Below, piece by piece: positions 1,866 through 42,600 of a stretch of DNA of 64,000 nt. Where the stretch lies: NCBI GenBank assembly GCA_001661245.1, contig KV454013.1:563981-627980 (forward strand), given 5' to 3'. Under the pieces are notes generated by a model, which worked only from the letters and a program-made list of their open reading frames with translations, was not told the DNA's origin and made no database searches. A program made the translations under genes and the position numbers. Positions within the stretch are counted from its first letter, which is position 1. Each line of letters opens with the position of its first letter. Source of the stretch: Pachysolen tannophilus NRRL Y-2460 (Eukaryota).

Positions 1866-4312
1866 ATGGTGAGTTGTTATTCTTCAATTTGTGGAACAGG
1901 GTTCTTTGCTATAATTCTTTAGCTTTTTGTGATTGAAATTAAAATTACTAACATGGATTTTATATGTGTTGTTATTTGTAGGATTTTAATTCTATCGAAG
2001 ATATCGATAATGTCAGATTGACTTGGAATGTTTTCCCAACAACAAAGATAGACGCTACGAGGCTTTCTGTTCCAATAGCATCTTTGTATACTCCGTTGAG
2101 ACAAAGGGAGGATCTTCCAATTTTACATGAGGATCCTGTGGTGTGTAGGCAATGTCAGGGAATATTGAACCCATATTGTCATTTGGATTTGACTATCAAT
2201 ATTTGGAATTGTCCTTTTTGCAATACTGTTAACAAGCTTCCGGTTCCAGATATTATACCTTTACAATGCCAACAGGAATTTACCACGATGGAGTATGTTA
2301 CATCTAGAAGAAATGCAACGCCTCCAGTTTTTTTATACGTTATCGATCTTTGTTTGGATGATGAAAATTTGTCTAATTTAATTGAATCTATATTGACAAG
2401 TATAGATCTTTTACCTGAACATGTCTTGATAGGTTTAATTACTTTTGGGAAAAATGTTAATGTTTATGAATTGGGTAACCAAGATGTTTCAATCAATTCT
2501 TTAACTTTTAATGGTAATAAGCCCTATACACTTGAACAGATTGAATCTATACTAGGTTTATTACCAAACTCACTTGTGGTGAAGTCTTCTCAACCGCTGC
2601 AACAGAAGAGTGCGATTTTGAATTATAGAGGTTCTAGGTTTGTTCAACCAGTTTCTCTTTGTCAATATCAGTTAAGGATGATTCTTGAACAAATTTTAAA
2701 AGATTCTTTCCCTATAAAACGTCATGAAAGGCCAATGAGAGCCACTGGATCTGCTGTCAATATTGCATTGAACTTGTTGAAATCGTGTTTCGACCAAACT
2801 GGTTCTCATATGCTCTTATTCAGTGGTGGACCTTGTACTTATGGGCCTGGAATGATTGTTGATGTCCCATTTAAAGAACCATTAAGATCACATAAGGATA
2901 TTCAAGGTGATACTGCAAAACATTATAAAAAAGCACTGGCATTCTATGATAATTTATCAACTTTGGCTGCAGTTAATGGTCATACAGTGGACATATTTGT
3001 TGGTTCTTATGATCAAGTTGGATTATATGAAATGTCGCCTTTATGTGAAAAGACAAATGGAGCTGTTGTACTTAGTGATTCTTTTACTACTGTTATCTTC
3101 AAACAATCATTAAACAAATTTTTCAGTAAGGATAACTTTGGGTTTTTAGAAATGGGTTTAAATGCTACATTAGATTTGAAAGTTTCCAAAAATTTGAAGA
3201 TAAATGGAATGATTGGACATGGAGTCTCATTACATTCGAATAAAGAGAAAAGTAGTATAAGTGACACTGAGATTGGTCTTGGTGGTACAACTGCGTGGAA
3301 ATTATGTAATGTTACTCCACATTCATCTTATGGAATTTATTTTGAAATAGCGAATAATACTTCGTCTGTTGGTCTTGATAATAATACTGCATTCATACAA
3401 TATATTTTATATTATCAGCACCCAAGCGGTGAAATGAGGCTAAAAGTCACCACAATACTGAGAAATATGCTCCTGCCGGGATCTGATTCAGATATAGGCG
3501 AGTATTTTGACCAAGAAGCTGCTGCTGTATTGATAGCTAGAGAGGCTATAAACAAATCTTTAAAAAACGTTGAAACAAATGATCTCTTGCTTTGGTTGGA
3601 TAAGATATTGATCGATTTATGTATCAAGTTTGGAGAATATACCAAGAATATTCTGGAGTCTTTTAAATTATCAATCAAGTTCTCCTTGTTTCCACAATTT
3701 ATTTATCATTTAAGAAGATCTCAATTCTTACAGATGTTCAATAATTCTCCTGATGAGACTTTATTTTACAGACATGTATTTCTTAGTGAAGACACAACAA
3801 ATTCATTGATCATGATTCAACCAACATTGATGGCATACGATATAGAACTGGAAGAACCCGAACCTGTATTATTGGACTCGTTATCATTGAAACCAGATAG
3901 AATCTTGCTCTTGGATACTTTTTTCCACATTCTTATCTATCATGGTGAAACAATTGCTACTTGGAAAAGCTTGGGATATCAGGATAAAGAAGATTATCAA
4001 TACTTCAAAGATTTCTTGAACTTACCTAGACAGGATCTGGGCGAGTTATTATACGACAGGTTCCCACTTCCAAGATTTGTTGATTGTAATGAAGGAGGTT
4101 CCCAAGCAAGATTTTTGTATTCAAAATTAAACCCATCCAATAATTACAAGTCACTTGCTGATAGTTTTACCACTGCTGTGACAGGTACTTTTGGTACTAT
4201 TGTTGGCGGAGCAAACTCCAATGCTTCAGGTGCTGTCATCTTAACTGATGATGTCAGCTTACAAACGTTTATGGAACATGTACAAAGACTGGTGGTCAAG
4301 AGTACAAATTGA
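1866..4312 (+). CDS. SEC23: Sec23-family COPII coat subunit / Sar1 GAP; join(1866..1868,1982..4312)
   Basis: Exon 1 is the ATG alone, followed by GTGAGT, TACTAAC at 1946 and TAG at 1981. Splicing gives [20 protein letters not shown], the typical Sec23 N-terminus. Zn finger [16 protein letters not shown] and GGSQARFL are present. May be a diverged paralogue. Confidence 0.88.
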
Positions 4313-4547
4313 TTTTGTTTCATATGTCCTTTTTTTTTTTTTTTTTTTTTTTCTTTTAGCTTATCTTTATTTTTTCCTCTTTCTCCTATTGTTGGACGCT
4401 CTTTCATTTTACTATCTATTTATTTCAACTTATCACCATTTTCAGCTTTGTTTTTTTCCAAAAAAAGACCTTTATATATAGTATTATCTTTTCTTGTAGT
4501 TTAAAAAATAATATTAACATTTAGATTCAATTATCTGTCTTGAATAG

Positions 4548-5302
4548 ATGTCTTTCAACACCGGTTCCTGGTCTGGGGAGAAATTTGCTGTTAGCAAAAA
4601 TACCGAATTGATTCAGTTTGCCTACAAAAACATCAAAGCCATTAAAGAATCAGATTCATATGAAAAGATGATTAGTGGAATACCGTAAGTGAAATTTAAA
4701 GATTGTTTTCGGATTTCAAATATTTATATTAACTTCATTCATATTGTAAAATTAGGTATAACGGTTATTCTAAAGAAATAATACAAGAAAGAACTATACG
4801 TCATGAAATTGCAATTGATTATGCATCGATAAGGTTGAAAGATTTTGCAAATTATCAAGATTTCATCAAAACAAGATATGAATACTTGACCAAATGTTTA
4901 GGTGGTCTAAAAGGTGAAAATATTCATCTTGAACCACCAATTTTTTTTGATTACGGTTACAACGTAGTTATTGGTGACAACTTCTTTGCAAATTTTAACT
5001 TGACTTTAATTGATTGTTCAATTATCAAAATTGGTAAAAATGTTCAGATGGGCCCTAATTGTGTCATATGTACTGCTACACATCCCATCGATAGTTCATT
5101 GAGAAGTCAAGGATATGAAATTGCATGGCCCGTAGAAATTGGAGATGACGTTTGGTTAGGCGCCAATGTACAAGTCCTACCTGGAGTAAACATTGGGAAC
5201 AACGTTGTGATAGGCGCTGGAAGTGTAGTTACTAAAGACATCCCAGATAATTGCGTTGCTGCCGGGATTCCTTGTAAAATTCTTAGATACATTAATAAAT
5301 AG
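4548..5302 (+). CDS. Maltose/galactoside O-acetyltransferase (hexapeptide repeat, YJL218W-like); join(4548..4684,4756..5302)
   Basis: YEKMISGIP/YN across a GTAAGT..TATTAAC..TAG intron. FDYGYN, ATHP and IGDDVWLGANVQVLPGVNIG left-handed beta-helix repeats. Confidence 0.85.
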
Positions 5303-5457
5303 TTTTAATAGTTGAGTTTAGTTTAGTTGAATTGGTTAGTTTTAGTTTTAAAGTATCAGTACTATTTGTCGCGTAAAAAAAAAAATCTTAAAGGTATTAA
5401 ATAAATACAATAATAGAATTAAAGACAGTGTTTATAATTCATAATTTTAATTGAAAT

Positions 5458-6468: not shown

Positions 6469-7016
6469 ACTCTTTTATCATTCCCTTCTCCATCCCCTTC
6501 TATCTCCACTATGTTTTCCCGCGCCCCCGCCTATTCTCACCGCTGCTTTTTTTGTTTTTCCGCCCGAAAAAAAAAGTTATTTTTTTCTCTTTTTCTTTGC
6601 TTCGGAGCTACTGGTGCGGTGGCCGCCCTTCGACGTGCTCCCTGCCGATGTACTCTTACTCTTTCCCGCGAAACGGGCTCGTCCTCCGCCGGATCTTCAG
6701 TTTTTTTTTTTTTTTTTTTTTTTTTTTCTTGCGTTTTCTTTTTCGATTCTTTATGTCCGGACTACTCTTTTCCAAACAAAAATGGGTCAAAAACCTTTGC
6801 AGAACCCAAAAAATAGTTGTTGCATGGAAACATTGAACAGTGTATTATATTTATATATATATATATATATATAGTTAGTTATATAAATATTTAGTAAATA
6901 TATTTTCAGGTTAGAGAAAGATAAAGAGCTTTTTTTTTTTTTTACTTCTTTTCGTCTGTTGGGCTTCTTTGAATTTTCTTTTTTTAATTTTGAAGAATTG
7001 AAGAAGAAGTGAAATA

Positions 7017-8675
7017 ATGTCTGCTTTAACTTCTATGAGAATTGGTGCTCGTCCGGCGTTTCATTTTAGCCGTCAGTATGTAAAGAACTTATGATTTGAT
7101 TTAGTCAATTAAGTGATCCGAGGTCATTTATAGAAGAATTAAAGATTACTAACTTTGATTTTTTTTTTTTTTTTATTATTAAGATTACCAAGATTTCAAG
7201 GTTTGGCTTTAAACCTTGCCAGAACATACGCTGGAAAATGTAAGTGGTACTTATAATTTTTTTAATGATTTAGTCTAAAAACGTTACTGACCTTTTTGTG
7301 TGTATTTTTTTTTTTCTCTATTATTTTTGAAGCTTTTCCTGATCATGTTGTTATCAAAATGCCAGCATTGTCTCCAACAATGACCCAAGGTAGTCTTCTT
7401 TCTTGGAGTAAAAAAGTTGGTGATAAATTGAATCCTGGTGAAGCAATTGCTGAAATTGAGACTGATAAAGCATCAATGGATTTTGAATTTCAAGAGGAAG
7501 GGTATTTGGCCAAAATCTTGGTAGAAGGTGGTGCAAAGGATCTTCCTGTAGGTAAGCCAATTGCCGTTTATGTTGAAGAAGAAGGTGATGTTGCAGCATT
7601 TGCCGATTTCACTGCTGAAGATGCAGGCGATTCAGGTGATTCAGGTGCAGCACTGGCACCACCAGCTCAGCTGTCATCAGAAGCTGCTCCAGCTAAAGAA
7701 GAGACTACTCCTCAAAAGGAAGAACCAGCTCCTGCCAAGAAACTGAGTCAGGCAGAAGCACCTTCTGCTCCACCTGCTGGGGGCAGGATCATTGCTTCAC
7801 CATTGGCGAAGACAATTGCTTTAGAAAAAGGTATCTCATTGAAAAACATCAAAGGTACTGGTCCAAAGGGTAGAATTGTAGCCGATGATGTAAGAAATTA
7901 CAAACCACCAGCAACTGCGGGTGTTACAGGTGCAGGTGCGGGAGCAGGTGCTCCAGGTGCTGCCCCATCTGCATCTTATGAAGACATTCCAATTACAAGT
8001 ATGAGAAGTACAATTGCCAAGAGATTATTACAATCTACTCAATCTTCACCAACTTATATCGTTTCTTCAGCAATCTCAGTTTCAAAATTGTTGAAATTAA
8101 GACAATCTTTAAATGCTACAGCCGAAGATCGTTATAAATTATCTGTTAATGACTTGATGTTAAAAGCAGTTGCTGTTACTGCTAGGAGAATGCCACAAGT
8201 CAATTCTGTCTGGTTGGAGAATGAAGGAATCATTAGACAATATAAAAATGTTGATGTCTCTGTTGCTGTTGCTACTCCAACAGGGTTGATTACTCCAATT
8301 GTTAAGAATGCAGACACTAAAGGATTGATTCAAATATCTACTGAAGTAAAAGATCTTGGTAAACGTGCAAAAGAAAATAAATTGAAACCAGAAGAATTTG
8401 TTGGTGGTACTATAACTATTTCCAACTTGGGTATGAACCATGCTGTTTCACTTTTCACTTCAATTATTAACCCTCCTCATTCTGCTATTCTTGCTATTGC
8501 CACAGTTCAAAAAGTTGCTGTTGAAGATAAATCCAATCCAAATGGATTCGTATTTGATGAAAAAATCAATGTCACAGGAACTTTTGACCATAGAACCGTT
8601 GATGGTGCATTAGGTGGTGAATTTATCAAAGAGTTGAAGAGAGTTGTTGAAAATCCATTAGAATTTTTGCTTTAG
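7017..8675 (+). CDS. LAT1: Pyruvate dehydrogenase E2 dihydrolipoamide acetyltransferase; join(7017..7075,7184..7239,7333..8675)
   Basis: Lipoyl domain (MPALSPTM, ETDKA), E3-binding ASPLAK and catalytic FDHRTVDGA. Two introns (GTATGT/TACTAAC/AAG and GTAAGT/TACTGAC/AAG) restore a mitochondrial presequence MSALTSMRIGARPAFHFSRQLPRF...ARTYAGKSFP. Confidence 0.93.
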
Positions 8676-9779: not shown

Positions 9780-9931
9780 GCTACCCCTTAATGTGTTGAA
9801 TTGAGTGATGATTCAGGGAAGAGAGGATTGAAATTTGTATATATTAAGTGGAGGTGTTTTTGTTGACTGTTTTATGTCCCATATATATATATATATATTA
9901 TATTATATCTTTAGTTGGTATTGGTTTAATT

Positions 9932-10308
9932 NNNNNNNNNNNNNNNNNNNNNNNNNNNNNNNNNNNNNNNNNNNNNNNNNNNNNNNNNNNNNNNNNNNNN
10001 NNNNNNNNNNNNNNNNNNNNNNNNNNNNNNNNNNNNNNNNNNNNNNNNNNNNNNNNNNNNNNNNNNNNNNNNNNNNNNNNNNNNNNNNNNNNNNNNNNNN
10101 NNNNNNNNNNNNNNNNNNNNNNNNNNNNNNNNNNNNNNNNNNNNNNNNNNNNNNNNNNNNNNNNNNNNNNNNNNNNNNNNNNNNNNNNNNNNNNNNNNNN
10201 NNNNNNNNNNNNNNNNNNNNNNNNNNNNNNNNNNNNNNNNNNNNNNNNNNNNNNNNNNNNNNNNNNNNNNNNNNNNNNNNNNNNNNNNNNNNNNNNNNNN
10301 NNNNNNNN
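9932..10308. other. Assembly gap (N run)
   Basis: Run of N. Confidence 1.
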
Positions 10309-10715
10309 AAAATTGTGAAAAGTTTATTTACTAGAATTGATTTTCATTTTCATTTTATATATGTACATATTTTATTCCATATTGATGAAATACTAATAGA
10401 AATGAACATGTATTTGATTTAGGAAAGAATCGTTAAGATTTTAGATTTAACCAAGACAGTTGCTCATTATGGTTGGATTCCTTTTGTTTTATATTTAGGC
10501 TGGAAAGCTACCCCAAATAGACCACATGTTGTTGCGTTATTATCACCATTGCCATCGGTTTAGGCTACCCCTTAATGTGTTGAATTGAGTGATGATTCAG
10601 GGAAGAGAGGATTGAAATTTGTATATATTAAGTGGAGGTGTTTTTGTTGACTGTTTTATGTCCCATATATATATATATATATTATATTATATCTTTAGTT
10701 GGTATTGGTTTAATT
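10309..10715 (+). repeat. Near-identical copy of 9517..9931, including TOM7 exon 2 at 10423..10563; probably unmerged contig overlap
   Basis: The copies abut opposite sides of the gap and differ only in homopolymer lengths near the contig end. Confidence 0.9.
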
Positions 10716-11050
10716 TTTTTTCATTTCAAAAAAAAAAAAATTTAACTTAGCTCTCTTTTCTAACTTTTATAGATATTATTATATTATATGTAAGCTATAT
10801 AAGTAAGCTATTTGTTTTAAAGTTATCTTGTGTACTTTTTTATAATCGTTAACTTAGTGTTTGGTATTATTTATCTAATTAGAAATTTTTCAGTAGTCAT
10901 CTTGCATATTAATAAATATATATATAAAAATATATATAAATTTTTCAACCTCTTATATTGTTACTTAGTGATAAACCAAATATTTGATATAGGGAAAGTT
11001 AGTGGTTTGACCTTTTCTAGTTTTCTTTTTCTCTTCTTGAGTTTTTCTAA

Positions 11051-12405: not shown

Positions 12406-15400
12406 ATGCAATTGTTAATAAACGAAAAATCGAGGGTGATTGCGTTGGTCTCTAGGACTTATATTTTATTATTTCAACATATGAAAGATGAGTCCAATAA
12501 GGTTCGAATAGAGTTACAATCGAAGGAATCATTCAATGATAAGCATTTTAAAAAATTTTCGAAACATAAGATTCATGGGTTTTTAGGGTTGATAAATGTT
12601 AATGATGATGTTTTTTTATGTGTAATTACTGGGAAAGCTGAAGTTGCAAATCCTTTACCTGGTCAAACTGTTAATAAGATTTTTGCTGTTGAATTTCATT
12701 GTTTAAATAGAAATACATGGGATTTTATTCAAATTGATAATAATGGGTATCCTAGTATGAGTAATTTTGATCCACAGAATAGTAGTGGTTCAATGAATTA
12801 TGAAATTAATGAAAGTGGGAATTTGGATCCAGAACAAAGATTTGAACAACATCCATGTTTTGAATTAAGAAAATTATTAGGTAATGGATCATTTTATTAT
12901 AGTTCCGATTTTGATTTAACAAGTGCTTTACAATCAAGAGGAGTAACAAATGATTCATTAAGCTTAGACGATTTTCAACAACAATATATGTGGAACTCAT
13001 TTATGATGAAACAAGTTATATCTTTTAGAAATCAATTGGGATCAAGTGAAAAAAATATATTAGATTATAATGGATTTTTAACAACTGTTATAAGAGGATT
13101 TGCAGAAACTTTCCAAACACATATCAAGAATTTGAAAACACAAGTCACTATTATTTCAAAACAATCTTGGAAAAGAGCTGGAACAAGATTTAATGCAAGA
13201 GGTATTGATGATGATGGGAACGTTGCTAACTTTGTTGAAACTGAATTCATCCTATCTTGTAATAAAGTTGTATATTCTTTTACAGAAGTTAGAGGCTCAG
13301 TTCCAGTTTTTTGGGAACAAGATACTGCATTAATTTCACCTAAAGTGCTGGTTACTAGGTCTAAAGAAGCTACTCAACCTGTATTTGAAAAACATTTCCA
13401 TGGTCTTTTTGAAAAATATGGCCCAGTTCATGTCGTTAACCTCTTGTCAAAGACAAAACCTTCAGAATATGAATTGTCTAAACGTTACAAGAGTCATGTT
13501 ACAACTTTAAGTCAACAAGATCTGCAAATTCTGTATACAGAGTTTGATTTCCATCTGAAAGCTGGGAAAAATTTCGAATTAGCAAATAAAATTATCCCAA
13601 TGCTTGAAAATTCACTTTTAGAATTTGGGTATTTTAGTTATGATTTGATCAATAATGAAATATTAACACATCAAACAGGAGTTTTCAGAGTAAATTGTTT
13701 GGATTGCTTAGATAGAACAAATGTTATTCAACAATTGTTATCAAATTGTCTGTTAAACTTGTTTTTCAAAGATAATAATATCCCAACTTCATATGAGATG
13801 GATTTAGTAACAAAACATAATACTTTGTGGGCAGACAATGGTGATGCAATATCACAAATATATACAGGTACAAATGCATTAAAATCATCATATACAAGAA
13901 GCGGTAAAATGGGATTTGCCGGAATGTTATCGGATGCAACAAAATCTGTTAGCAGAATGTATATAAACAATTTTCAAGACAAGGGAAAACAAATGACTAT
14001 AGATACTTTATTGGGTAAATTAGAAAATCAAGTACCAGTTCAAATATTTGATCCAATAAATGATTATGTTATTGAAGAGCTAGATAAGTTTTCTTCTAAA
14101 TTTACTAAATACACCAATATTACGGTTTTCACTGGAACGTATAATTTAGCTGGTGTTAGCAAAGTTGGAGATTTAACAGAATGGTTATTCCCACAGGAAA
14201 ATAATGGGATTTCACCAGATATTGTAATTTTAGGATTCCAAGAAGTATTAGAATTAAATGCACAGAATTTGATTAACAATGATAAATCTCAGTCGGTTTA
14301 CTGGCAAAAAGTTGTTGGAGACCAATTGAACTCTGGTATTACTGGTGACACTTATGTCTTATTAAGAGCAGAACAAATGACATCAATCATGTTATTATTT
14401 TTCGTTAAATCTGACAAGATGCCATTCATTAAAAATGTTGAAGGTGCAACTAAGAAAACAGGACTTGGAGGTATGGCTGCCAACAAAGGTGGGGTTGCTC
14501 TTAGATTTGACTATAGTGATAGTAGTTTTTGTGTGGTAAATTCTCATTTAGCTGCTGGTGTTAAGGCTATTGAAGAAAGATGTAACGACTTTGAAACGAT
14601 TTCAAATGGTATTAGTTTTTCTAGAGGTAAAAAAGTGAAAGATCATGAATCTGTGATATGGTTAGGTGATTTGAATTTTAGAATCGATCTTTCTAATGAA
14701 GAAGTAAGGTCTTGCATTTCAAGTTCCAATTTAAATTATCTTTTACAGTATGATCAACTAAAACATGAAATGAATGTTAAAAATGGATTCTTCAAAAAAT
14801 TCTTTGAAGCGAAAATTGATTTCAAGCCAACTTATAAATTTGATAAGATGTCAAATTATTACGATTCTTCAGAAAAACTGAGAGTTCCTTCATGGACAGA
14901 TAGAGTCATTTATTACGGTAAGAACTTGCATCAATTAAATTATAATTCTTGTGAGACAATCATGTTTTCAGATCATAGACCTGTATATGGTACATTTGAA
15001 GCTAAAGTTAAAATTATAGATCAAGCATTAAGGCATAAGATAAAACACGAATTATACATGAACTATAAAGGTCTGCATAAAGATGAGTTAAATTCAGGAA
15101 GCCTAATTGATTTGGAAGATTTAGAAGGAAGCAGCCCGTCATTGCTCTCAGATTCAAGAGAAACTTCGTCCTTGTCGAGATCTTCAACACCTTCATCATT
15201 AAGAGACTTGGAGAAAACATCACCACCTGCATTACCCTCACGAACAAGTACTTTTAGTACACCCTCATCTGTTGGGAAGACTCCTCCCCAACCACCACTA
15301 CAAAGAAGAAAATTGCCCCCGCTGTATAATTCTGATGACCCCCCATTGTTGCCAAGTAGATCATCCGATAAGGCTAGTGTAACTTTGCAACTGCTGCTGC

Positions 15401-15789
15401 CGCTGCCTGTCAAGGTTCCACCAAAACCACCTGCTCCACGGAAATTACCACCTCCTATGAAATCAGTTCCGCCTATCGGATTCTCTAATACTGTTTTACA
15501 ACCAACGAGGTCTTCATCAAGTACTCCGACACCATCAGAAATTCAAACTCCAACTCAACAGCGCTTGAACGGGAACAACAAGGTTAACAACCAGAATGAA
15601 TATGATACTAATCAAAAAATGGCCCCGTTAATCCCAAAAAAACCACTGTCACTAACTTCAGTTCCTATTATTGCAAATAATACCAATACAAGCCTACCAA
15701 CTTCTACTGATAAAAATGAGACTCTCAGTGGAGTTACAACTCCTCCAGGTATGAGTATGTCAGATTGGAAACCTTTACAACCTCAGTAG
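12406..15789 (+). CDS. INP53: Synaptojanin-like polyphosphoinositide phosphatase (Inp52/Inp53 orthologue)
   Basis: SAC domain (RAGTRFNARG, RVNCLDCLDRTN), 5-phosphatase domain (WLGDLNFRI, PTYK, PSWTDR, SDHRPV) and a Pro-rich tail. Confidence 0.93.
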   Translation: MQLLINEKSRVIALVSRTYILLFQHMKDESNKVRIELQSKESFNDKHFKKFSKHKIHGFLGLINVNDDVFLCVITGKAEVANPLPGQTVNKIFAVEFHCLNRNTWDFIQIDNNGYPSMSNFDPQNSSGSMNYEINESGNLDPEQRFEQHPCFELRKLLGNGSFYYSSDFDLTSALQSRGVTNDSLSLDDFQQQYMWNSFMMKQVISFRNQLGSSEKNILDYNGFLTTVIRGFAETFQTHIKNLKTQVTIISKQSWKRAGTRFNARGIDDDGNVANFVETEFILSCNKVVYSFTEVRGSVPVFWEQDTALISPKVLVTRSKEATQPVFEKHFHGLFEKYGPVHVVNLLSKTKPSEYELSKRYKSHVTTLSQQDLQILYTEFDFHLKAGKNFELANKIIPMLENSLLEFGYFSYDLINNEILTHQTGVFRVNCLDCLDRTNVIQQLLSNCLLNLFFKDNNIPTSYEMDLVTKHNTLWADNGDAISQIYTGTNALKSSYTRSGKMGFAGMLSDATKSVSRMYINNFQDKGKQMTIDTLLGKLENQVPVQIFDPINDYVIEELDKFSSKFTKYTNITVFTGTYNLAGVSKVGDLTEWLFPQENNGISPDIVILGFQEVLELNAQNLINNDKSQSVYWQKVVGDQLNSGITGDTYVLLRAEQMTSIMLLFFVKSDKMPFIKNVEGATKKTGLGGMAANKGGVALRFDYSDSSFCVVNSHLAAGVKAIEERCNDFETISNGISFSRGKKVKDHESVIWLGDLNFRIDLSNEEVRSCISSSNLNYLLQYDQLKHEMNVKNGFFKKFFEAKIDFKPTYKFDKMSNYYDSSEKLRVPSWTDRVIYYGKNLHQLNYNSCETIMFSDHRPVYGTFEAKVKIIDQALRHKIKHELYMNYKGLHKDELNSGSLIDLEDLEGSSPSLLSDSRETSSLSRSSTPSSLRDLEKTSPPALPSRTSTFSTPSSVGKTPPQPPLQRRKLPPLYNSDDPPLLPSRSSDKASVTLQLLLPLPVKVPPKPPAPRKLPPPMKSVPPIGFSNTVLQPTRSSSSTPTPSEIQTPTQQRLNGNNKVNNQNEYDTNQKMAPLIPKKPLSLTSVPIIANNTNTSLPTSTDKNETLSGVTTPPGMSMSDWKPLQPQ

Positions 15790-18036: not shown

Positions 18037-18041
18037 ACTAA

Positions 18042-18866: not shown

Positions 18867-20765
18867 ATGGTATTGAAGAATATTTATATAGCAAGAGTAA
18901 GTTGGAATAAGTTGAATTAATAATGAATCTACATGTATTTTATGTGTTTAAATCAATATTATTTTGCTAACTAATAATTATTTTTTTTTTTTTTTTGGGA
19001 TATAGCATGGTTATAGGTCTAATTGGCTTCCACCACCGCATCCAGATCCACCAACTGGAATTGATAGTGATATTCTGTTAGCACCTCATGGTGTAGATCA
19101 GGCGGTTGAGTTGGGCAGTTATATTTCTACTTTGGATAAGAAACCTCGATTAATTTTTAGTTCTCCTTTTTATAGATGTATTCAAACTTCTAAACCTGTG
19201 TCTGAGAAGCTTGGATTAAAAATTAATTTAGAAAGAGGTATTGGTGAATGGTTTAGACCAGATAGAGAGATTATTCCAGAGCCTGGTGATGTTAATAAGA
19301 TGTCTAGTTTTTTCAAAGGTTATATAAATGAAGAATATGATCTGAATTCATTAGGTATTATTCCTTCATTAAAAGGTGAAAGTGAACAAGATGTTTTCAA
19401 TAGATGCAAGAAATTTGTTGAAATTTTTATTCCATTTATTGATCGTAAATATCCTCAAGTTGAATCTGTATTATTAGTCACGCACGCAGCAACAAAGATC
19501 GCGTTAGGTATGGCTTTATTGGGTTATCAAGGTGTTAAACAAAAATTGGAACCAAAAGATATTATTAATGGTGATGATCGTTTAAGAACTGGATCATGTT
19601 CATTAGATGAATTTGAACGTGATACTAACAGTAACAGCTGGAAATTGTTGATGAATGGTAACACTGATTTTTTATCAGAAGGTGAAGAGATGAATTGGAA
19701 TTTTGGTAAGTTTACTTTTTATTTTTTATTCTACATTTTTATTTTATATGCTTACAGCAAACTAACAATTTTTTTTTCTTTCTTTTTTTTTTTTTTTTTT
19801 TTTTTGGCTATATTACAGAGAGTTCTTTTGAAGCAGGATCAGATGAAGATATTAAAGCTAGAGCAGAAGCTCAAAGTAGAAGAGCTGCAAAAAATGCTAA
19901 AAATAAAGAGTATGATGTAAGTAAGGGTAAATTATGATTTTTGGCTATTACCACTAAACTTTTTCTCTTACACTCTTTTCATTATTAAAGAAACTATTAT
20001 CTAGTTTTTGATTTTTCAATTAAATTAAATATTTGTGTGTTTAACAAGAAAAAAAAAAATAAAAATGAAGAAGATATATAATGTTAATATTTTTATAAAG
20101 AAGAGTTTAGCGACTATACCAAAAGGATATTGTCAGCATATATACTAATTGTACAATGATCATTTTTATAGGAAGTCTACATTACATTAGAATTACCAGT
20201 AGACAAGAATCATCTGACGTTTAACCCCCATTATAAGAACCTTTTATTAGAACAATTTGCTAAAAATGAACAATCTTCTTCAACAATGGAATCTAATTCC
20301 ACCAAATCCATACCATCAAGTGCTGTTGGATTACAATTAGAAGATAATTTTTTCTCTACAATCCAACCCACTTCAACTTTCCAATATTCTGGATTAGAGA
20401 CTTTAGAACCTTTATTTAAACTCAATGATACTGTTTATAAAGGAGAATGGAGAAAATTATATGGAACAGAATTAATTTTTAATGATAATGGTGATGTAAT
20501 TGCTAATGTTAAAGATAGAATACGATTACAACAAGGAAAATTAGATAGACTGACTAAATCTGAAGAAGAAGAAAAATTGAAAACTACAAAAACTGGAGAT
20601 TCTCTGATTTCAAAACAAAATGATGATAATAAAACTATTTATAAAGAAGAATATTTTACCGAGTTACCACAACAGTATCAAAGATCTTCAAATGATTTCT
20701 TATTAAAATCCATGTTGTTAGCTAAAAAAATTGAAATGGAAAAAAAAAATAAAGTTGATAAGTAA
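18867..20765 (+). CDS. TFC7: TFIIIC subunit tau55 (histidine-phosphatase domain plus C-terminal TFIIIC domain); join(18867..18896,19006..19705,19819..19916,20172..20765)
   Basis: Splicing restores IYIAR/HGYRSNW (RHG motif). SSPFYRCIQT, LLVTHAA, EMNWNF/ESSFEAGSDEDIK and the C-terminal FQYSGLETLEPLFKLNDTVYKGEWRKLYGTELIF are present. All three introns start GTAAGT and keep frame. Confidence 0.88.
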
Positions 20766-22004: not shown

Positions 22005-22856
22005 ATGGCTCAGACAAGAAGTGCCACTTTGCGGAATAAGAATAGGAAATCACCAAAGAGTAGTCCTTTAAGGAAAGAAAGTGGTGGTGATAATAGTACT
22101 CCAAGGAAAAGTCCAATATCAAGTCCTTTAACTAAAAAGAGTTCACCTGGGAAAATTATTAAAACTAGTGAGATTAGTGAAACTAGTGCTAGTCCATTAT
22201 CGAAGAAGGAAGAAGATGTTAAAGTTATTGGAACGGAGACACTTGAGTTGCCTAGTGATTCAGATTCAGATTCAGATTCAGAATTAGATTCTGAATCAGA
22301 ATCTGAAGAGATTCAATATGAAATAGAATCAGAAAAGGCAAAAACACCAATAACACATTCTGTTAAAGTACAATTGAATAATATAGCAACAAATAAAAAT
22401 AATAAAAAATCTAAATTGAAAAAGGGAATTGTATATATTGGTAGAATTCCACATGGTTTTGAAGAAATTGAAATTAAAAATTATTTTCAACAATTTGGTA
22501 CTATTACTAGATTAAGATTATCAAGAAATAAAAAAACTGGTAATTCAAAACATTATGGATTTATAGAATTTGAAAATTATGAAGTTGCTAAAATTGCTCT
22601 GGAAACTATGAATAATTATTTAGTTTATGGACATATTTTGAAAACTCAACTTTTATCTAATGAAAAAATTCATCAACGTTTATTTGATGGTGCTGATACA
22701 AAATTTAAAGTAATTCCAAGAGAAAAAATTGCTCGTAAACAAAATGATAAACAAAAAACTATTTCAAAATGGAATTTATTACAAAAAAGGGATAAACAAA
22801 GAAAATTGAAAAAATTGGAAAATTTAAAGAAAATGGGTATTAATTACGAATTATAG
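22005..22856 (+). CDS. NOP15: RRM pre-60S biogenesis factor
   Basis: IVYIGRIPHGF, RLRLSRNKKTGNSKHYGFIEF and ETMNNYL motifs. First ATG at 22005. Confidence 0.92.
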   Translation: MAQTRSATLRNKNRKSPKSSPLRKESGGDNSTPRKSPISSPLTKKSSPGKIIKTSEISETSASPLSKKEEDVKVIGTETLELPSDSDSDSDSELDSESESEEIQYEIESEKAKTPITHSVKVQLNNIATNKNNKKSKLKKGIVYIGRIPHGFEEIEIKNYFQQFGTITRLRLSRNKKTGNSKHYGFIEFENYEVAKIALETMNNYLVYGHILKTQLLSNEKIHQRLFDGADTKFKVIPREKIARKQNDKQKTISKWNLLQKRDKQRKLKKLENLKKMGINYEL

Positions 22857-24441: not shown

Positions 24442-26343
24442 ATGAGTGAATTCACTGCTAGGAAAACTTTAGCTCATATTTTAGAAGGAAATACAGATGT
24501 AATTACAGATCAATTTGATGATAATTTATCAGATGTTGAAGTAGAGGAAGATGAATTTTTAAATAATTCAAATCCAAATTTTTGTATTGAATGTAAAGAT
24601 ATGCCAAGAGAAATTCATTGTATTGATTGTGATGAAAATTTTTGTAAAGCTTGTTTTAATTTGATTCATAGAAATGGTAAGAGAAAAGATCATAAATCGG
24701 AACATGTGGGAAATGATTTAATTTTAAATGATGACAATGGCAATAATGTGAAAAAAATTGGTAGTACTAGTAATGATGATGATATTGGAACTAGTAATCC
24801 TAATTCTAATGGTAATAACAATAACAATATTGATGGTACTCTGAGTTTTGTTAATAATGATGCAGGTATGGATTTGGATCCGGTATCAATAGTACCGGGT
24901 TCAGCAAATGAAACCATCGAAAGAACTATCATGAATGGAATTAAAAGACAAATTAAATATATCCCATTAAGACTTACCCCGGAAGAAAGACAATTACTTA
25001 GATTATTAGAAGCAGCTTTGAATGTCTCGGAATATACTGATAGAGTTGATATCTTTTCTTATAAATCAAAAGCTAAGAGAATTGTAGAACAATTAAAGGA
25101 AATATGTTCAATATTAGCTGGATTGGTTGTTGCATCAAATTTAAAAATTGGACAAGAATTAATTGAAAATAAAAATTTTGAAGATAATTCAGATTGGTAT
25201 CAATCCGTTTTCGAAATTGGTAGAAGATATAAGATTATGAATCCTGAAAAAATGCGTGATACATTTGGTAAATTGATGTATATGGTTATGGATTCAAGAT
25301 TACCTGAAATTAAAAATCATATGGAATTTGATTTATATAAACCAATAAAAACTGTTTACTCATATTTAAACTCTAAAGAAGATAAGAAAAGTTTAAATAT
25401 GTTTGATGATATATTAATAGTTAATGCTACAGCAGAAATTTCACCTCAGGGAAAATCTAGAAATCAAATAAACAGAGAAATCAAATTAAAAGAAAGTGCA
25501 ATTGAAACCATTAGTAATCGTTATTCTTCTTCAAATGGATTTTCCAAGGAAGAAATTAAACAAGTTTTATATTCAATTGGTGATTTTAATGCATATACAA
25601 ATTCTAATAGAAAACCAATATTAAGAATGTTAACTAAATTAGAAAAATTCCCTGCAGAAAGTGTAAAATCAGGTAAAAGTTATAACTTAGGAATCATGTT
25701 TGGAATTAAAGGTTCTAGATTAACACATGATCATTCAAAACAATATCATTATGTTCATCAATCTTTACAATTATGGTCACTTATAATGAGAGAAATGATT
25801 CATTTATGGTACTTGGCAGATGATGACTTGTTAAGTGAATCAAAATATTCATTACAATCAACAGGTCAAGGCCTTAATAGAGTCAAACTGTCACCTCAAG
25901 TATTACGTTATATGCATAAGATTCTTTCGGAATGCCAACAAAATTGTAAAACATGGATTGGTAGCTCTGTTATACATCTTGGAGATTATACAGTACCAAA
26001 TTCGTTATTTTTCTTGGATAAATATATTCAAGTCCCAAGAATACTTATCCCAGTTGACTTATCAATCAGTAAGATTGAAGAGTTGGCTCAAGATAAATTC
26101 ATTAAAAAATATATTGAAGACCAATTCGGATCAACTCAAGACTTGGAGAAAATCATCTTACAAGATTTCTTCTCTTACGGATTTGATGGCTCAGGAACAA
26201 ATGATTTCTACAGCTCAGGATCTTGTATCGATGGTAGATTGACAAGTGCTTGGAATTGGGCTAATGAAGTAAGTAAAAAACCTTACTACAAATTCTTCTT
26301 ATTATCTGGTTTTATTGGTTTTAACGGAAGTGATGGCTTTTAA
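24442..26343 (+). CDS. UPF0652/DUF2009-family protein with N-terminal B-box-like Zn finger
   Basis: CIEC..C.DC....C..C....H....R..H. Also IPLRLT..ER..LRLLEAALNVSEYTDRVD, EIGRRYKIMNPEKMR, HLGD and GSCIDGRLTSAWNW. Confidence 0.82.
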   Translation: MSEFTARKTLAHILEGNTDVITDQFDDNLSDVEVEEDEFLNNSNPNFCIECKDMPREIHCIDCDENFCKACFNLIHRNGKRKDHKSEHVGNDLILNDDNGNNVKKIGSTSNDDDIGTSNPNSNGNNNNNIDGTLSFVNNDAGMDLDPVSIVPGSANETIERTIMNGIKRQIKYIPLRLTPEERQLLRLLEAALNVSEYTDRVDIFSYKSKAKRIVEQLKEICSILAGLVVASNLKIGQELIENKNFEDNSDWYQSVFEIGRRYKIMNPEKMRDTFGKLMYMVMDSRLPEIKNHMEFDLYKPIKTVYSYLNSKEDKKSLNMFDDILIVNATAEISPQGKSRNQINREIKLKESAIETISNRYSSSNGFSKEEIKQVLYSIGDFNAYTNSNRKPILRMLTKLEKFPAESVKSGKSYNLGIMFGIKGSRLTHDHSKQYHYVHQSLQLWSLIMREMIHLWYLADDDLLSESKYSLQSTGQGLNRVKLSPQVLRYMHKILSECQQNCKTWIGSSVIHLGDYTVPNSLFFLDKYIQVPRILIPVDLSISKIEELAQDKFIKKYIEDQFGSTQDLEKIILQDFFSYGFDGSGTNDFYSSGSCIDGRLTSAWNWANEVSKKPYYKFFLLSGFIGFNGSDGF

Positions 26344-26661: not shown

Positions 26662-29019
26662 ATGAATTTTTTGTCAAAGACCCTTGGGTCGTTAACAGGG
26701 AGTAGTATTCCTTATACTTTAGGTGAAAAAGTGGAATCAAGTTTTATAACAGATCCAAATTCTTATTCGATCTGGAATGTTTATGATGCAGTTAAGAAGG
26801 AAGATTCATTATTTTGTACAGTATTTGAGTTTGATCAGAGGTTACCTCAAAATTCGAAATATATTCCATTTGCTATTAATGCGTGTAAGAAATTGCGTTC
26901 CACAAAGCTTCCTGGTGTGTTGAATACCATAGATACTATCCAAAATGATAGTCACATATATATTATAACAGAAAGAGTCGAACCGTTGTCGAAATATTTA
27001 TTGAAGAACCCATCATTATCAAATGAGATTTTAAAATTTGGTACGTTTACTGTTAGTAGGGCTTTGAGGTTTATCAATTGTGATGCAAAATCTATACATG
27101 GTAATGTTAATATTCACTCTGTATTTGTCAATAACAGTGGTGAATGGAAATTGGGTGGTTTTGAAGTAATGACCAATATCTCTACAGACGGTGTAGATAT
27201 GCTAAGGTTAGCTCATCAATTACCTAGTTTTAATTATAATTTACAACCGCTGGAGTTTGAGAAAAGTGGGACTGATTGTTTAATTAGATCACCTCAAAGT
27301 AGTATCAAGTATGATGCTTTTAAATTAGGATTATTAATTGTACAAATATTCAGTTCTACCAAAATTGGTGATAGTATACTTATTAATCAATTCATTGGGA
27401 AAGTTCCAGTTCAGCTGAATTTCCAAACAAATGTAAAAAAATTATTAAATCAAAGTATTACTTTAAGAATCACAGTTGAAGTTTTTTTCAAAACAGGTTT
27501 AAGCTCTTTTTTCAAAACACCTTTGATTGATTGTTTCTTAAATTTAGAAATGTTAAACGTGAAAGATGCACAAGAAAAATTAGAATTCTTTAATTCTTTA
27601 TCAGATATTACAAGAGATTCTCCTAATGGATTTGTTGAATATAAAATTTTACCAAACTTGATTCAACTTTTCTATTTTACAAGTAACGATGATGCAACTA
27701 ATACTTCAGTGATACTAATAAATATCTTGAAATTCAGTTTGAATTTAAATACAAAAGAATTTAATAATTCAGTGAAACCAATTATTTTGAAATCCTTTAC
27801 AATGGCAGATAGATCTATTAGAATGGCATTATTAACTTCTCTTTCAACTTATATAGAAAAATTCACACAAAATGAAGTTAGTAATCATATTTTCAATAAC
27901 TTACTTACAGGATCCAATGACACAAATCCCAAGATCAGGGAAGAGACCTTGAAAGCTATTATACCAATTGCTCCAAAATTGAGTGATAGGCAACTAAATA
28001 ATGATTTATTAAGATACTTGGCAAAGGCTCAAAATGATACGGTACCAGAAATCAGAACAAACACAGTAATTTGTTTGGGTAAAATTGCACAATACATGAA
28101 TAAAAATTCTAGACCAGGTATTTTGATCACTGCGTTTTCAAAATCTTTAAAGGACCCATTTGTTCCATCACGGCTTTCAGCAATAATGGCATTTGCATCA
28201 TGTATTGATTTTTTTCCACCAGAAATATGTTGTTCTAGAGTTCTCTCTTCAATTGCTCCAAATTTGTTGGATAAATCTTCAAAAGTAAGAATTGAGACGG
28301 GAAAAATTTTTGAATTATACATGGAGAAAATCAGGCTGGAACTGTCGAGTTTACCAGTAGAAGACGATAGCATAATAGAACATGATACGGTAAAGAATGA
28401 AGAATTGAACAATCATATGGTTGAACAGCAAAACTTATCAATGTCTTCGATTGGTTGGAGCACATTGAATCTGTTGTCAAATAAGATAGGAGGAAGTTTA
28501 AGTATCCGGGAAACACCTTTACAATCCCCAGCGTTACAGCAATCTCAAACAGTTGAATCTCTTGGTGGGGGTAATAATAATAATGATGATAATCATGTGG
28601 TTAATAACAATAAGAAACTTTCTTCTTTTGTCATTCAGCCAGAAAGCACATTTGATCCGTGGGAAAATGATAACAGTTTTGCCAACGGTGATGATGCTTG
28701 GGGATATGAAATGCAAGATGACGAAGAACATGTTGAAGAAAGCCCAGAACCTAATATCAACGAAGATAGTTGGGGATTTGGTAGTTCCCCCAAACCGGCA
28801 TCTTCGACATATACAATTAAGGAAAATACCTATAACCATAACGTCAGGAACAATGACAAAGTTACGCTGAAAACACAGGTTAAGACTAAGACAAATGGCA
28901 CTGGTAATGAGGTGAAGAAAAATTCTGGTTTAAAGTTATCAAAAACTTCTAAAAGTACAAAATTAAAATTGGATTTACAAATTGATGGAAATGACGGATG
29001 GGGAGATGGTGAGTGGTAA
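26662..29019 (+). CDS. CEX1: SCY1-like pseudokinase with HEAT repeats
   Basis: SIHGNV...WKLGGFE pseudokinase, LNNDLLRYLAKAQND and IRTNTVICLGK HEAT region, and an acidic Trp-rich tail. Syntenic with TFC7, the Maf-like gene and AZF1. Confidence 0.88.
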   Translation: MNFLSKTLGSLTGSSIPYTLGEKVESSFITDPNSYSIWNVYDAVKKEDSLFCTVFEFDQRLPQNSKYIPFAINACKKLRSTKLPGVLNTIDTIQNDSHIYIITERVEPLSKYLLKNPSLSNEILKFGTFTVSRALRFINCDAKSIHGNVNIHSVFVNNSGEWKLGGFEVMTNISTDGVDMLRLAHQLPSFNYNLQPLEFEKSGTDCLIRSPQSSIKYDAFKLGLLIVQIFSSTKIGDSILINQFIGKVPVQLNFQTNVKKLLNQSITLRITVEVFFKTGLSSFFKTPLIDCFLNLEMLNVKDAQEKLEFFNSLSDITRDSPNGFVEYKILPNLIQLFYFTSNDDATNTSVILINILKFSLNLNTKEFNNSVKPIILKSFTMADRSIRMALLTSLSTYIEKFTQNEVSNHIFNNLLTGSNDTNPKIREETLKAIIPIAPKLSDRQLNNDLLRYLAKAQNDTVPEIRTNTVICLGKIAQYMNKNSRPGILITAFSKSLKDPFVPSRLSAIMAFASCIDFFPPEICCSRVLSSIAPNLLDKSSKVRIETGKIFELYMEKIRLELSSLPVEDDSIIEHDTVKNEELNNHMVEQQNLSMSSIGWSTLNLLSNKIGGSLSIRETPLQSPALQQSQTVESLGGGNNNNDDNHVVNNNKKLSSFVIQPESTFDPWENDNSFANGDDAWGYEMQDDEEHVEESPEPNINEDSWGFGSSPKPASSTYTIKENTYNHNVRNNDKVTLKTQVKTKTNGTGNEVKKNSGLKLSKTSKSTKLKLDLQIDGNDGWGDGEW

Positions 29020-29371: not shown

Positions 29372-32088
<2,717 letters not shown>

Positions 32089-39228: not shown

Positions 39229-39616
39229 AACTGTTTAAAATAACCGCTAATATTAATTTTAGAAGAACGATAACAGACAAGTTGTTCTGTTATTACTTAT
39301 TTATTTCAATTCTTATATAATTCATTATAATAGACCGATATTGCTTAATATATTCTGTAAAATTTTCCAATATTGAAGAGTACTAAAATGCCATATAAAT
39401 GATAATTAATATTAAAATGTATATAAAAAGTATATAAAATAAACCCGATTCAAAATCTAATGATGACTATAAAATGTGATATTGTTCAAAAAAATTATAC
39501 AAATAATACAGTAATAAATGACAAAAGAAATTTAGCAAAATATATAATGATACGAATATATTTTTAAAATACTAAATTTCTTTAGTCGAATTATAAAGAT
39601 GATAACTTTTTCAAAC

Positions 39617-42600
39617 TTAATCTGAAAAATTGAAATCGTCTTCATCGCTATTTTTATTACTAGTACTCTCATTATTATTTCCAGGAGGAGACCTATTCGC
39701 CCATTCCGTTAACAAATCCTCAAATATACTATTGACATTATCATCTGGAATTGGCTGCTGAATACTGGTAGAACTAATTCCATATTGATTCTGTTGAGGC
39801 TGTTGTTGTTGATCCAGACTTCCTGACTCTTGCAGCTGTTGAGCATTATTGCCACTTGCAATGTTAACACTATTATTCATAGTATTAAGATTCGTTGACG
39901 ACAATCCTGAAGGAATGTGATAAAGACTAGAAGTTGGCGATGGTTGTAAAGATACATTTGAATTGTTAACCATGTTTCCAGTAGCAATATTATTGTTGTT
40001 ATGAGCTTCCTCTGATGGAGTTACGTTAGACAACGGAGAATTATTCTTATTCCTGTTTGACGTGTTCATATTAGCTCCATAACTGCTATTCGATGATAAA
40101 CCAGGACTACTGCTATGACTAAAATTATTACTTCCAGTATTATTTGGATTCATGTAGGGAGGTAAAAATCTTCCAAAAATTTTGGTATCCAACTGATCCA
40201 TCATACCAGGTACATACCTTCTCTTGCTGATTGGAAGTGAAGATTCACGTTTTGGTTGCTGACCTTGCAGTGGCTGGTACTGTTGTTGCTGTTGTTGTTG
40301 TTGAGGATCCTGGTTCTGCTGCTGTTGTTGGTGATGTTGCTGCTGTTGTGGAGAATATCCAAATGGTGAATTTACATATTCCTGATTTGGAGTTGGCGCA
40401 GAAATATTCAAACTTATTCCCGTGTTAATACCATCAATATAATTCACTCCATTAACTATGTTATTGATACTTGAATTCTCACTCTTCTTCCCAGTAATAT
40501 TCAACGGTAGCCTTGGTGTATTCACAGTACTACTACCAATCAGATTATCTAATGCTTGTAAATTCAGGTTACTGTTATTTTCCAATTTAACACCATCTGG
40601 ATTTTGATAATTCATCTGCTGAGTACCTTCAAACTGTATCTCACCTTGAGCATTTGAATCAAAGGGACGAGAACGGACTGTAGAATTGATTTGTAGAGTA
40701 TCACCATTAATACCATTTTTATTTCCACTATTATTACTGCTATTAACTATATTAGTTTTGTTACCATTATTAGAATTTGTAGGTGTTGCAGGATGGAAAT
40801 TTGCAGTTCTTCTATTCAACTGTTCAAATAAAGAGTTCAATATGTTATAAGTTCTTCTTGCTGCCATACTACTGTCTTTCAAAAGATTCAAAAGTCTTTT
40901 ACCCATTTCAGCATCTTGTTTGATAGCGATATATTCTTGGTCAATTTCTCCTTTTGAATTCAACTGTGGTGATGAGTGAACATAAAAGACCAAACATGCT
41001 ACAGAAAAAAATATTGTGTAGATCGAAAACCAGTAAGATCCACTTAACATATGTTTGTTGATCATATCCTGTGCTAATTTTACTACAATTCTTGCAACAT
41101 TAATACAATTTTTCAGTTTTTCAATTGATTTTAAATCGTCACTATTATTTGAATTTGTAAACTGTTGTAAATAATCTGCAGATATGTAATGAATAAATGG
41201 ACGATAAAGAATAATTTTAACATGAAGATATGCAATATGTAAAAGTCTGTTTGCCTTAAAATATTGTGGTTCTGGTTCAATCCCTGGTTTCAATTCTAAT
41301 GGAAGTTCATTGACCCAGTTTTGTAAATCCAATTCCAATTCATATACAACATTATTCAGAGATAAATGTACGAAATTTTCAGAAGGTTTAATTGGATATA
41401 ATTTTTTAACTATTTTTTTCATAACAAATATTAATTTTGTATGAGCATTTGCAATTCCTGCACTTGAAAGTCTACCCTTTTGATTATCATAAATGTAACC
41501 AGTTTCAGTAATATTTTCATCATCCAATTCTGAAGGTAAATCTTGATCAAAATCTTCTTCACTAATAGTTCGTGGTAATCCTAACATTGCATTCACATAA
41601 ATATCCATCTTATAAATAGTCCAAAAAATTCTTTTCCTAATTTCCAATTCGATTGGATTAAAAGGATAATCTAATTTTCTATGTAAACCTTCTCTTAATG
41701 CTGCTCTTAACAGTATACCGATATATGAATAACAAGTTGATAATCTTGCTCCACACTGTAAGAATAAGATTAACATTACTATTGTTTGAATACCATAAAT
41801 ATCTCTTGTATCTGTTATATCTATTAATTTTCTTGCTGCAATAAAATATTTATAACCTTCATCATCTAATAAATCTCTATCACTTTTTTCATCATTATTA
41901 TTATTATTATTCCTAACATTATTCTTCGTATCTTGAGCACTTTTATAAAATAAAGAACCACATGCCATTACAGAATATACAAGTGGTAAAAATCGTTGTT
42001 GTTGATTTGAATAATTTGCTGGGTCTGTTTCATATAACACATTAAGATCTTTAATAAAACTTGGTCTATGATAAAATCTGAATAAGACACAAGCATTATC
42101 CCAAGTATTTGAAATAAGTTTTAAAGCAATATCTTTTGGAGGAAGAATGATTTTAATTTCTTTACCCATATGAGATTCTATTGAACCATCAATGGCCAGT
42201 TGAGGTGTAGGTTGATTTGATGGAGGAGCTGTTGGAGCTGAAGAAGGTGAATGAGTATATGGTATTCCATTATTAATATTATTTTTCTTATTTGCCAAAT
42301 TATAAGTATCAGTAATATATTTTAAAGAAATATCTTCATCTTTTTTTTCATTTTTAACTTGACTTAATACATTTGTTAATTTAATAACATTTATCTCTTG
42401 ATTTTGTCTATTAACTTTTAAATCTGGTAATAATTTTTCCACAAAATGTTGATAATTATTAAGTTTTCTTGTTAATTGGTTCAATACTTCTTGTGGGTCT
42501 TGTTGTAAGACTGGAGTTGAAGGAGAAGGTTCATTTGTATTTCCTGTACTCGTACCCCCTGCACCAGCTCCAGCACCAGTACTTGTAGCAACTCCATTAC

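What the first reader, a model, noticed from the sequence alone, without database searches (positions are those of the whole stretch)
4037..41713. CUG codons appear to encode alanine (non-standard nuclear genetic code)
Seen: in-frame CTG at 4037 (Sec23 RQD-x-GELL), 14878 (Inp53 SEK-x-RVPSWTDR), 22599 (Nop15 AKIA-x-ETMNNY), 41711-41713 (Asg1 YIGI-x-LR), 41114-41116 (Asg1 EK-x-KNC), 19075 (Tfc7 DI-x-LAPHG) and 25888 (DUF2009 RVK-x-SP). From my recollection of homologues these columns are mostly Ala (EAAELL/DAQEIL, SEKART, VAETMNNY, IGVA/IGIA, RARN). Low-complexity runs also read naturally with Ala: 15391-15405 LQAAAPAP and Lat1 7653 AAAAPPA. Established: CUG=Ala is the code of Pachysolen tannophilus and relatives, distinct from CUG=Ser in Candida. 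Inference: this window is from that clade. Not every CTG is informative.
Basis: partly seen in the sequence, partly recalled or inferred. Interest (0 to 1): 0.8.

Follow-up and report, generated by a model that had tools for sequence, protein, structure and literature searches.

The report
Known CUG=alanine code of Pachysolen
The window is nuclear DNA of the yeast Pachysolen tannophilus, whose reading of the codon CUG as alanine instead of leucine is real and visible here, but was already published in 2016.

Summary
All nine cited CTG sites are in-frame codons. Three ORFs match deposited or stored proteins: two are named Pachysolen tannophilus NRRL Y-2460, and the third is the window's own stored protein with its name withheld. 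These records differ from the standard-code translation at every CTG codon they cover, 20 of 20, always Leu to Ala.

An independent tally used four proteins aligned to 119, 119, 119 and 149 homologues. It gave 23 well-aligned CTG columns with mean Leu 0.04. The other five Leu codons score 0.46-0.67. Mean Ala was 0.24 and Ser 0.09. The best summed log-odds was Ala (+1.3), against Ser (-16.7) and Leu (-40.6). All 56 other codons listed decoded to their standard residue. Permutation controls gave 0 of 100,000 draws.

Tfc7 is Pro, and DUF2009 is His/Gln.

The tRNA(CAG) could not be sought because no genome is held. Mühlhausen et al. 2016 (PMC4937558) already report the alanine-type tRNA and LC-MS/MS proof. 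NCBI table 26 is this code. Interest is low.

The parts
4037..4039 (+). CTG codon, Sec23 residue 674
   Evidence: In frame. Relatives Ala 0.84 weighted over 149 representatives. Ala in solved yeast and human Sec23.
14878..14880 (+). CTG codon, Inp52/53-like residue 825
   Evidence: Ala 66, Gln 44 of 119 homologues. Deposited P. tannophilus protein has Ala.
22599..22601 (+). CTG codon, Nop15 residue 201
   Evidence: Ala in the S. pombe and Chaetomium solved orthologues, 2 of 2 alignments shown.
41711..41713 (-). CTG codon, Asg1 residue 588
   Evidence: Ala 117, Gly 2 of 119. Deposit has Ala.
41114..41116 (-). CTG codon, Asg1 residue 787
   Evidence: Ala 98, Gly 20, Leu 1 of 119. Deposit has Ala.
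19075..19077 (+). CTG codon in exon 2 of Tfc7
   Evidence: In frame. Pro in solved S. cerevisiae Tfc7 and YNL108C. Neither Ala nor Leu.
25888..25890 (+). CTG codon, DUF2009 protein residue 483
   Evidence: 78 metagenome loci: His 32, Gln 24, Ala 10, Ser 8, Pro 2, Val 1, Thr 1. No Leu. No solved structure.
15391..15405 (+). Four CTG codons in a low-complexity tail of the Inp52/53-like protein (15391, 15394, 15397, 15403)
   Evidence: In frame. Columns are 62-98% gaps in the alignment, so uninformative.
7653..7655 (+). CTG codon in the Ala/Pro-rich linker of Lat1 (E2 of pyruvate dehydrogenase)
   Evidence: In frame. Lies between the lipoyl (19-91) and E3-binding (165-200) domains. Not tested against relatives.
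12406..15789 (+). Inp52/53-like ORF, 13 CTG
   Evidence: Equals PACTADRAFT_40792 apart from 7 of 7 covered CTG = Ala and one E/K beside a gene-model gap.
39617..43474 (-). Asg1-like ORF, 15 CTG
   Evidence: Equals PACTADRAFT_20807 apart from 7 of 7 covered CTG = Ala and one V/I beside a gap. The other 8 CTG lie where the partial model has gaps.
26662..29019 (+). Cex1/Scy1-like ORF, 6 CTG
   Evidence: The stored protein P0241 has the same length (785 aa) and its only differences are 6 of 6 CTG = Ala.
2018..4312 (+). Sec23 ORF, 8 CTG
   Evidence: Pfam Sec23 domains. Five CTG columns are well aligned.

Best explanation
The window is nuclear DNA of Pachysolen tannophilus (type strain NRRL Y-2460 or a near-identical isolate). 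In this yeast the codon CUG is decoded as alanine. [quoted passage not shown] It carries the G3:U70 pair and A73, which alanyl-tRNA synthetase recognises without reading the anticodon.

Shown here: the species identity, and that CUG columns behave as Ala and not as Leu or Ser.

Taken from the literature and not tested here: the tRNA and the peptide evidence.

The proposed history is loss of the ancestral tRNA-Leu(CAG), decay of CUG codons, then capture by tRNA-Ala(CAG). It fits the weak conservation of today's CUG sites.
For: (1) Identity. The best hits of two ORFs are named P. tannophilus NRRL Y-2460 proteins. Of 20 CTG codons covered by three deposited or stored proteins, 20 read Ala. The only other differences are 2 residues beside gene-model gaps.

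(2) Independent column test on 4 proteins (119, 119, 119 and 149 homologues kept; own-species rows left out). It covers 23 of their 42 CTG codons at occupancy >= 0.7:
- Summed log-odds: Ala +1.3, Ser -16.7, Gln -20.8, Leu -40.6.
- Bootstrap best residue: Ala in 1736 of 2000.
- All 56 other codons listed (5 or more columns each) gave their standard residue.

(3) Permutation: 0 of 100,000 draws of 23 columns from the other Leu codons reach a mean Leu as low. 0 of 100,000 draws from non-Ala columns reach a mean Ala as high.

(4) Extra single sites: Nop15 Ala/Ala, Dbp2 Gln/Gln, Fkh Ser/Thr, Tfc7 Pro/Pro. None is Leu.

(5) Literature, read in the Results and in passages of PMC4937558. The tRNA(CAG) of Pachysolen has G3:U70 and A73. 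97.2% of 907 fully supported CUG positions in LC-MS/MS peptides read Ala.

(6) The translate tool names NCBI table 26 'Pachysolen tannophilus nuclei: CTG=A'.
Against: - Only 5 of the 23 well-aligned CTG columns have Ala at 0.5 or more. 15 have no residue at 0.5 or more, 2 are Gln and 1 is Pro.
- Mean Ala at CTG columns (0.236) is far below that at GCN columns (0.517). 0 of 100,000 draws of GCN columns go as low. From conservation alone, the call of Ala rests largely on about five to eight columns.
- One column, Sec23 residue 758, is Leu 0.39 / Met 0.24. Sec23 residue 486 is Leu in yeast Sec23.
- The deposited proteins were translated by their submitters under this code, so their Ala residues show how the record is annotated. 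They are not independent proof.
- No tRNA or peptide was examined here.
Confidence: 0.96

Rival explanations
1. CUG is read as serine, as in the Candida/Debaryomyces (Ser1) or Saccharomycopsis/Ascoidea (Ser2) clades.
For: Ser is the second-best residue in the log-odds ranking. A few columns have Ser on top: Asg1 426 at 0.39, Asg1 706 at 0.34, Inp5x 890 at 0.24. Fkh 45677 is Ser in yeast Fkh1.
Against: - Ser scores 18 nats below Ala.
- Mean Ser at CTG columns is 0.091, equal to the background of 0.086. It is 0.368 at true Ser codons, and 0 of 100,000 draws of those go as low.
- The organism is P. tannophilus, placed in the Ala clade (PMC5951914 passages).
Confidence: 0.01
2. CUG keeps its standard meaning, leucine, and the Ala columns are coincidence.
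For: Sec23 residue 758 sits in a Leu/Met column. Sec23 residue 486 is Leu in yeast. The searches and alignments were made with Leu at CTG, which biases toward Leu.
Against: - Mean Leu at CTG columns is 0.037, against 0.46-0.67 for CTT, CTC, CTA, TTA and TTG. 0 of 100,000 draws match it.
- Leu scores -40.6 nats.
- Asg1 residues 588 and 787 would put Leu in columns that are 117 of 119 and 98 of 119 Ala.
Confidence: 0.005
3. CUG is decoded ambiguously, as Ala plus a second residue. Ascoidea asiatica does this with Ser and Leu. It would explain why CUG avoids strongly conserved sites.
For: CTG columns are less conserved than GCN columns: mean top-residue frequency 0.53 against 0.66, and mean Ala 0.24 against 0.52. 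The highly expressed Hsp70 gene has no CTG at all.
Against: - PMC4937558 (Results) reports that 97.2% of 907 fully supported CUG positions read Ala. The rate of deviation is similar to that of AUG.
- CTG does occur in nearly invariant Ala columns, such as Asg1 588.
- Weak conservation is equally expected if CUG codons arose recently by mutation.
Confidence: 0.03

Closest known systems
Pachysolen tannophilus nuclear code (NCBI translation table 26; Mühlhausen et al. 2016, PMC4937558)
   Same: It is the same organism and the same reassignment. Deposited proteins of strain NRRL Y-2460 equal the window's ORFs with Ala at CTG. The column test gives Ala.
   Different: Nothing differs. The window adds no new element. 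The tRNA(CAG) gene is not in the window, whose only tRNA is tRNA-Asn at 60993-61068.
CUG-Ala clade of Pichiaceae (Pachysolen, Nakazawaea, Peterozyma; Krassowski et al. 2018, PMC5951914, passages read)
   Same: Same code. The nearest non-identical relatives found are unnamed proteins at 65-68% identity over the aligned residues. One has Leu in an Ala column exactly where the window has CTG. This is expected if a standard-code pipeline translated another Ala-clade genome.
CUG-Ser codes (NCBI table 12, Candida clade; Ser2 clade)
   Same: The same codon leaves Leu in a budding yeast, by a tRNA whose synthetase does not read the anticodon.
   Different: The residue differs. Ser is not enriched at the window's CTG columns: 0.091 against a background of 0.086.

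Membership tests
CUG=Ala nuclear code (NCBI table 26) | CUG codons align with Ala, not Leu or Ser, in orthologues | tested here: met
   23 columns: best log-odds Ala +1.3, Ser -16.7, Leu -40.6. All 56 other listed codons decoded correctly. Permutations 0 of 100,000.
CUG=Ala nuclear code (NCBI table 26) | Organism belongs to the Ala clade (Pachysolen, Nakazawaea, Peterozyma) | tested here: met
   Two ORFs equal named P. tannophilus NRRL Y-2460 proteins apart from CTG=Ala. Clade membership is from PMC5951914.
CUG=Ala nuclear code (NCBI table 26) | A tRNA with anticodon CAG bearing Ala identity elements (G3:U70, A73) and no long variable arm | not testable with these tools
   No whole genome is held. 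The window holds only tRNA-Asn. Reported for this species in PMC4937558.
CUG=Ala nuclear code (NCBI table 26) | Peptides with Ala at CUG positions | not testable with these tools
   Reported as 97.2% of 907 positions in PMC4937558. No proteomic data here.
CUG=Ser code (NCBI table 12) | CUG codons align with conserved Ser | tested here: not met
   Mean Ser 0.091 at CTG columns, against 0.368 at Ser codons and 0.086 overall.
Standard code | CUG codons align with Leu like the other five Leu codons | tested here: not met
   Mean Leu 0.037 against 0.543.

The most novel reading that the evidence does not exclude
Most present-day CUG codons of Pachysolen may not be recoded old alanines. They may instead be young substitutions born from one-step neighbour codons, CAG (Gln) and CCG (Pro), at sites that tolerate Ala.

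In relatives, CTG columns carry Gln at 0.106 and Pro at 0.104. GCN columns carry 0.019 and 0.028, and all columns 0.038 and 0.051. Single sites in Dbp2 (Gln/Gln), Tfc7 (Pro/Pro) and DUF2009 (Gln 24 of 78) point the same way. GCN is two substitutions away from CTG.

The sample is 23 columns and five residues were tested. The Gln excess over all columns is 1,327 of 100,000 draws and the Pro excess 8,149 of 100,000. This is a lead, not a result.
Probability: 0.35. Interest if true: 0.25.

Novelty: already known. Interest (0 to 1): 0.1.

Why it matters
The reading is correct, so the window must be translated with NCBI table 26. A standard-code annotation would put Leu at 97 Ala positions in these 25 ORFs, about 7 per 1000 residues. 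As biology it adds nothing. The reassignment, its tRNA and its proteomic proof were published in 2016, and the clade was delimited in 2018. The practical value is as a positive control: a reader without tools recognised a sense-codon reassignment from 64 kb of raw sequence.

Tried and rejected
- The whole genome was asked for, to seek tRNA(CAG). None is held.
- A look-up of earlier notes on this genome returned nothing.
- The solved-structure search for the class II aminoacyl-tRNA synthetase C-terminus returned 0 hits. My cut-off of 1e-40 was too strict, so this says nothing. Its 3 CTG sites stay untested.
- The DUF2009 fragment has no solved relative at 1e-8. Metagenome loci were used instead.
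- The two YEATS (Yaf9) CTG sites fall in a loop with insertions and are uninformative.
- In Sec23, CTG 194 lies in a variable stretch and CTG 611 is opposite a gap in the solved structures.
- CTG codons in low-occupancy columns were excluded from the tally: 19 of the 42 in the four proteins.
- Not examined against relatives: CTGs in the FG-repeat ORF 47565-50732 (17), the C2H2 ORF (7), PAP2 (3), Lat1 (3), Rio2 (2), TFIIIC6 (2), the second Tfc7-ORF pair, and single sites in RNase H2A, a mitochondrial carrier, MFS, Rtt106, PTP and Ras.
- Riley et al. 2016 is recalled as an independent report of the same code. It was not opened here.
Full report
**What is in the window.** The window is AT-rich, with GC 29.7%, and holds three runs of N: 9932-10308, 43966-44520 and 58971-59331. 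It carries about 25 long ORFs that Pfam identifies as ordinary budding-yeast genes:
- Sec23, RNase H2A, Lat1, a mitochondrial carrier
- a synaptojanin-like Inp52/53, Yaf9, Tfc7, a TFIIIC subunit, Nop15
- a DUF2009 protein, a Cex1/Scy1-like HEAT protein, a Dbp2-like DEAD helicase
- a C2H2 factor, an MFS transporter, Asg1, a forkhead factor, PAP2
- Rtt106, Rio2, an Hsp70, a tyrosine phosphatase and a Ras-like GTPase

The only tRNA gene is tRNA-Asn at 60993-61068.

**Check of the observation.** The site at 19075 lies in exon 2 of Tfc7, upstream of the mechanically listed ORF start. In the 25 ORFs there are 97 CTG among 13,268 codons. ORFs were taken from table-11 starts, so a few of these may precede true start codons.

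**Identity of the organism.**
- The Inp52/53-like ORF has as best hit 'PACTADRAFT_40792, partial [Pachysolen tannophilus NRRL Y-2460]'.
- The Asg1 ORF has as best hit 'PACTADRAFT_20807', on the same 1,751,653-bp contig.
- The first record differs from the standard-code translation at 8 residues. Seven are the 7 CTG codons it covers, all Ala. One is an E/K beside a 16-residue gap in the gene model.
- The second differs at 7 of 7 covered CTG, all Ala, plus one V/I beside a gap. The other 8 CTG fall where the partial model has gaps.
- The Cex1-like ORF has a stored counterpart of equal length. Its only differences are its 6 CTG codons, all Ala.

So 20 of 20 covered CTG codons are Ala in the records. 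This shows that the window is P. tannophilus and that the records were translated under the Ala code. It is not independent proof of the code.

**Independent test.** I aligned four ORFs, translated with Leu at CTG (which biases against Ala), to homologues:
- 119 each for Inp52/53, Asg1 and Cex1, with own-species rows left out
- 149 of 150 representatives for Sec23

With Henikoff weights and an occupancy cut-off of 0.7, 3028 of 3961 columns were kept. These included 23 of the 42 CTG codons.

For each codon I summed the log-odds of each amino acid over its columns. All 56 other codons listed (five or more columns each) gave their standard residue. CTG gave these values:

| Residue | Summed log-odds (nats) |
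|---|---|
| Ala | +1.3 |
| Ser | -16.7 |
| Gln | -20.8 |
| Leu | -40.6 |

The bootstrap favoured Ala in 1736 of 2000 resamples.

Mean Leu frequency at CTG columns is 0.037, against 0.543 at the other five Leu codons. Mean Ala is 0.236, against 0.044 at non-Ala columns. In each case 0 of 100,000 random draws of 23 columns matched the observed value.

The strongest single columns, as weighted Ala frequencies:
- Asg1 588: 0.98 (Ala in 117 of 119 homologues)
- Asg1 787: 0.87 (98 of 119)
- Sec23 674: 0.84
- Cex1 561: 0.72
- Inp52/53 449: 0.69

**Results that weaken the picture.**
- Only 5 of 23 columns have Ala at 0.5 or more. 15 have no majority residue, 2 are Gln and 1 is Pro.
- CTG columns are significantly less Ala-rich than GCN columns: 0.236 against 0.517, with 0 of 100,000 draws.
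- Sec23 758 is a Leu/Met column.
- DUF2009 25888 is His 32, Gln 24, Ala 10, Ser 8, Pro 2, Val 1, Thr 1 in 78 metagenome loci.
- Further single sites: Nop15 Ala/Ala, Dbp2 Gln/Gln, forkhead Ser/Thr, Yaf9 uninformative.

None of these supports Leu or Ser. They show that CUG mostly sits at weakly constrained sites.

**Mechanism.** No genome is held, so the tRNA could not be sought here. Mühlhausen et al. 2016 (PMC4937558; abstract, Results and passages read) report three things:
- 97.2% of 907 fully supported CUG positions in LC-MS/MS data read Ala.
- The species has 16,824 CUG positions in 5288 predicted proteins.

They explain the change by loss of the ancestral tRNA-Leu(CAG), followed by capture of the codon.

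Krassowski et al. 2018 (PMC5951914; passages read) place Pachysolen with Nakazawaea and Peterozyma in an 'Ala clade'. NCBI table 26 is this code.

**Verdict.** The feature is already known, so interest is low.

The one lead beyond the literature I read is the excess of Gln and Pro in relatives at CTG columns. Their codons CAG and CCG are one-step neighbours of CTG. This would fit a young, mutational origin of most CUG codons, but it rests on 23 columns.

Noticed in passing
CTG columns of window:2018-4312, 12406-15789, 26662-29019, 39617-43474; also 31126-31128, 19075, 25888: In relatives, CTG columns hold more Gln (0.106) and Pro (0.104) than GCN columns (0.019, 0.028) or all columns (0.038, 0.051). 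CAG and CCG are one substitution from CTG, and GCN is two. The sample is small.
   Followed up: partly
window:56920-58761 (-): The Hsp70 gene has no CTG and no CTT, CTC or CTA either. All 50 Leu codons are TTA (38) or TTG (12). This is a strong codon bias, typical of a highly expressed gene.
   Followed up: no
window:9932-10308, 43966-44520, 58971-59331: Three runs of N (377, 555 and 361 bases) create spurious overlapping ORFs in the mechanical list at 9835-10422, 43907-44595 and 58910-59501.
   Followed up: yes
window:~18990-19006: Tfc7 has an intron that splits the histidine-phosphatase RHG motif. Exon 2 begins with HGYRSNW at 19006, just after an in-frame stop and a T-rich tract. Exon 1 was not located.
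   Followed up: partly
window:12406-15789 and 39617-43474: The deposited P. tannophilus gene models are 'partial' and omit stretches where the window has an uninterrupted ORF. These are residues 127-142 and 925-1127 of Inp52/53, and 225-294, 904-949, 1034-1067 and both ends of Asg1. They are probably over-predicted introns in low-complexity sequence.
   Followed up: partly
P0122 and P0002 (unnamed relatives, 65% and 68% identity): P0122 has Leu at the Asg1 residue-787 column, where the window has CTG and 98 of 118 other rows have Ala. It also has Leu at a second column that is 100 Ala. P0002 has Leu in one column that is 102 Ala. This is expected if these come from another Ala-clade yeast translated with the standard code. 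The DNA was not seen.
   Followed up: partly
window:47565-50732 (-): A 1055-residue ORF without a Pfam match carries FSFG-type repeats, like an FG nucleoporin, and 17 CTG codons, the most of any ORF here.
   Followed up: no
coding strands of the 25 ORFs: The trinucleotide CTG is very unevenly spread over codon phases: 97 in frame, 343 in phase 1 and 19 in phase 2.
   Followed up: no
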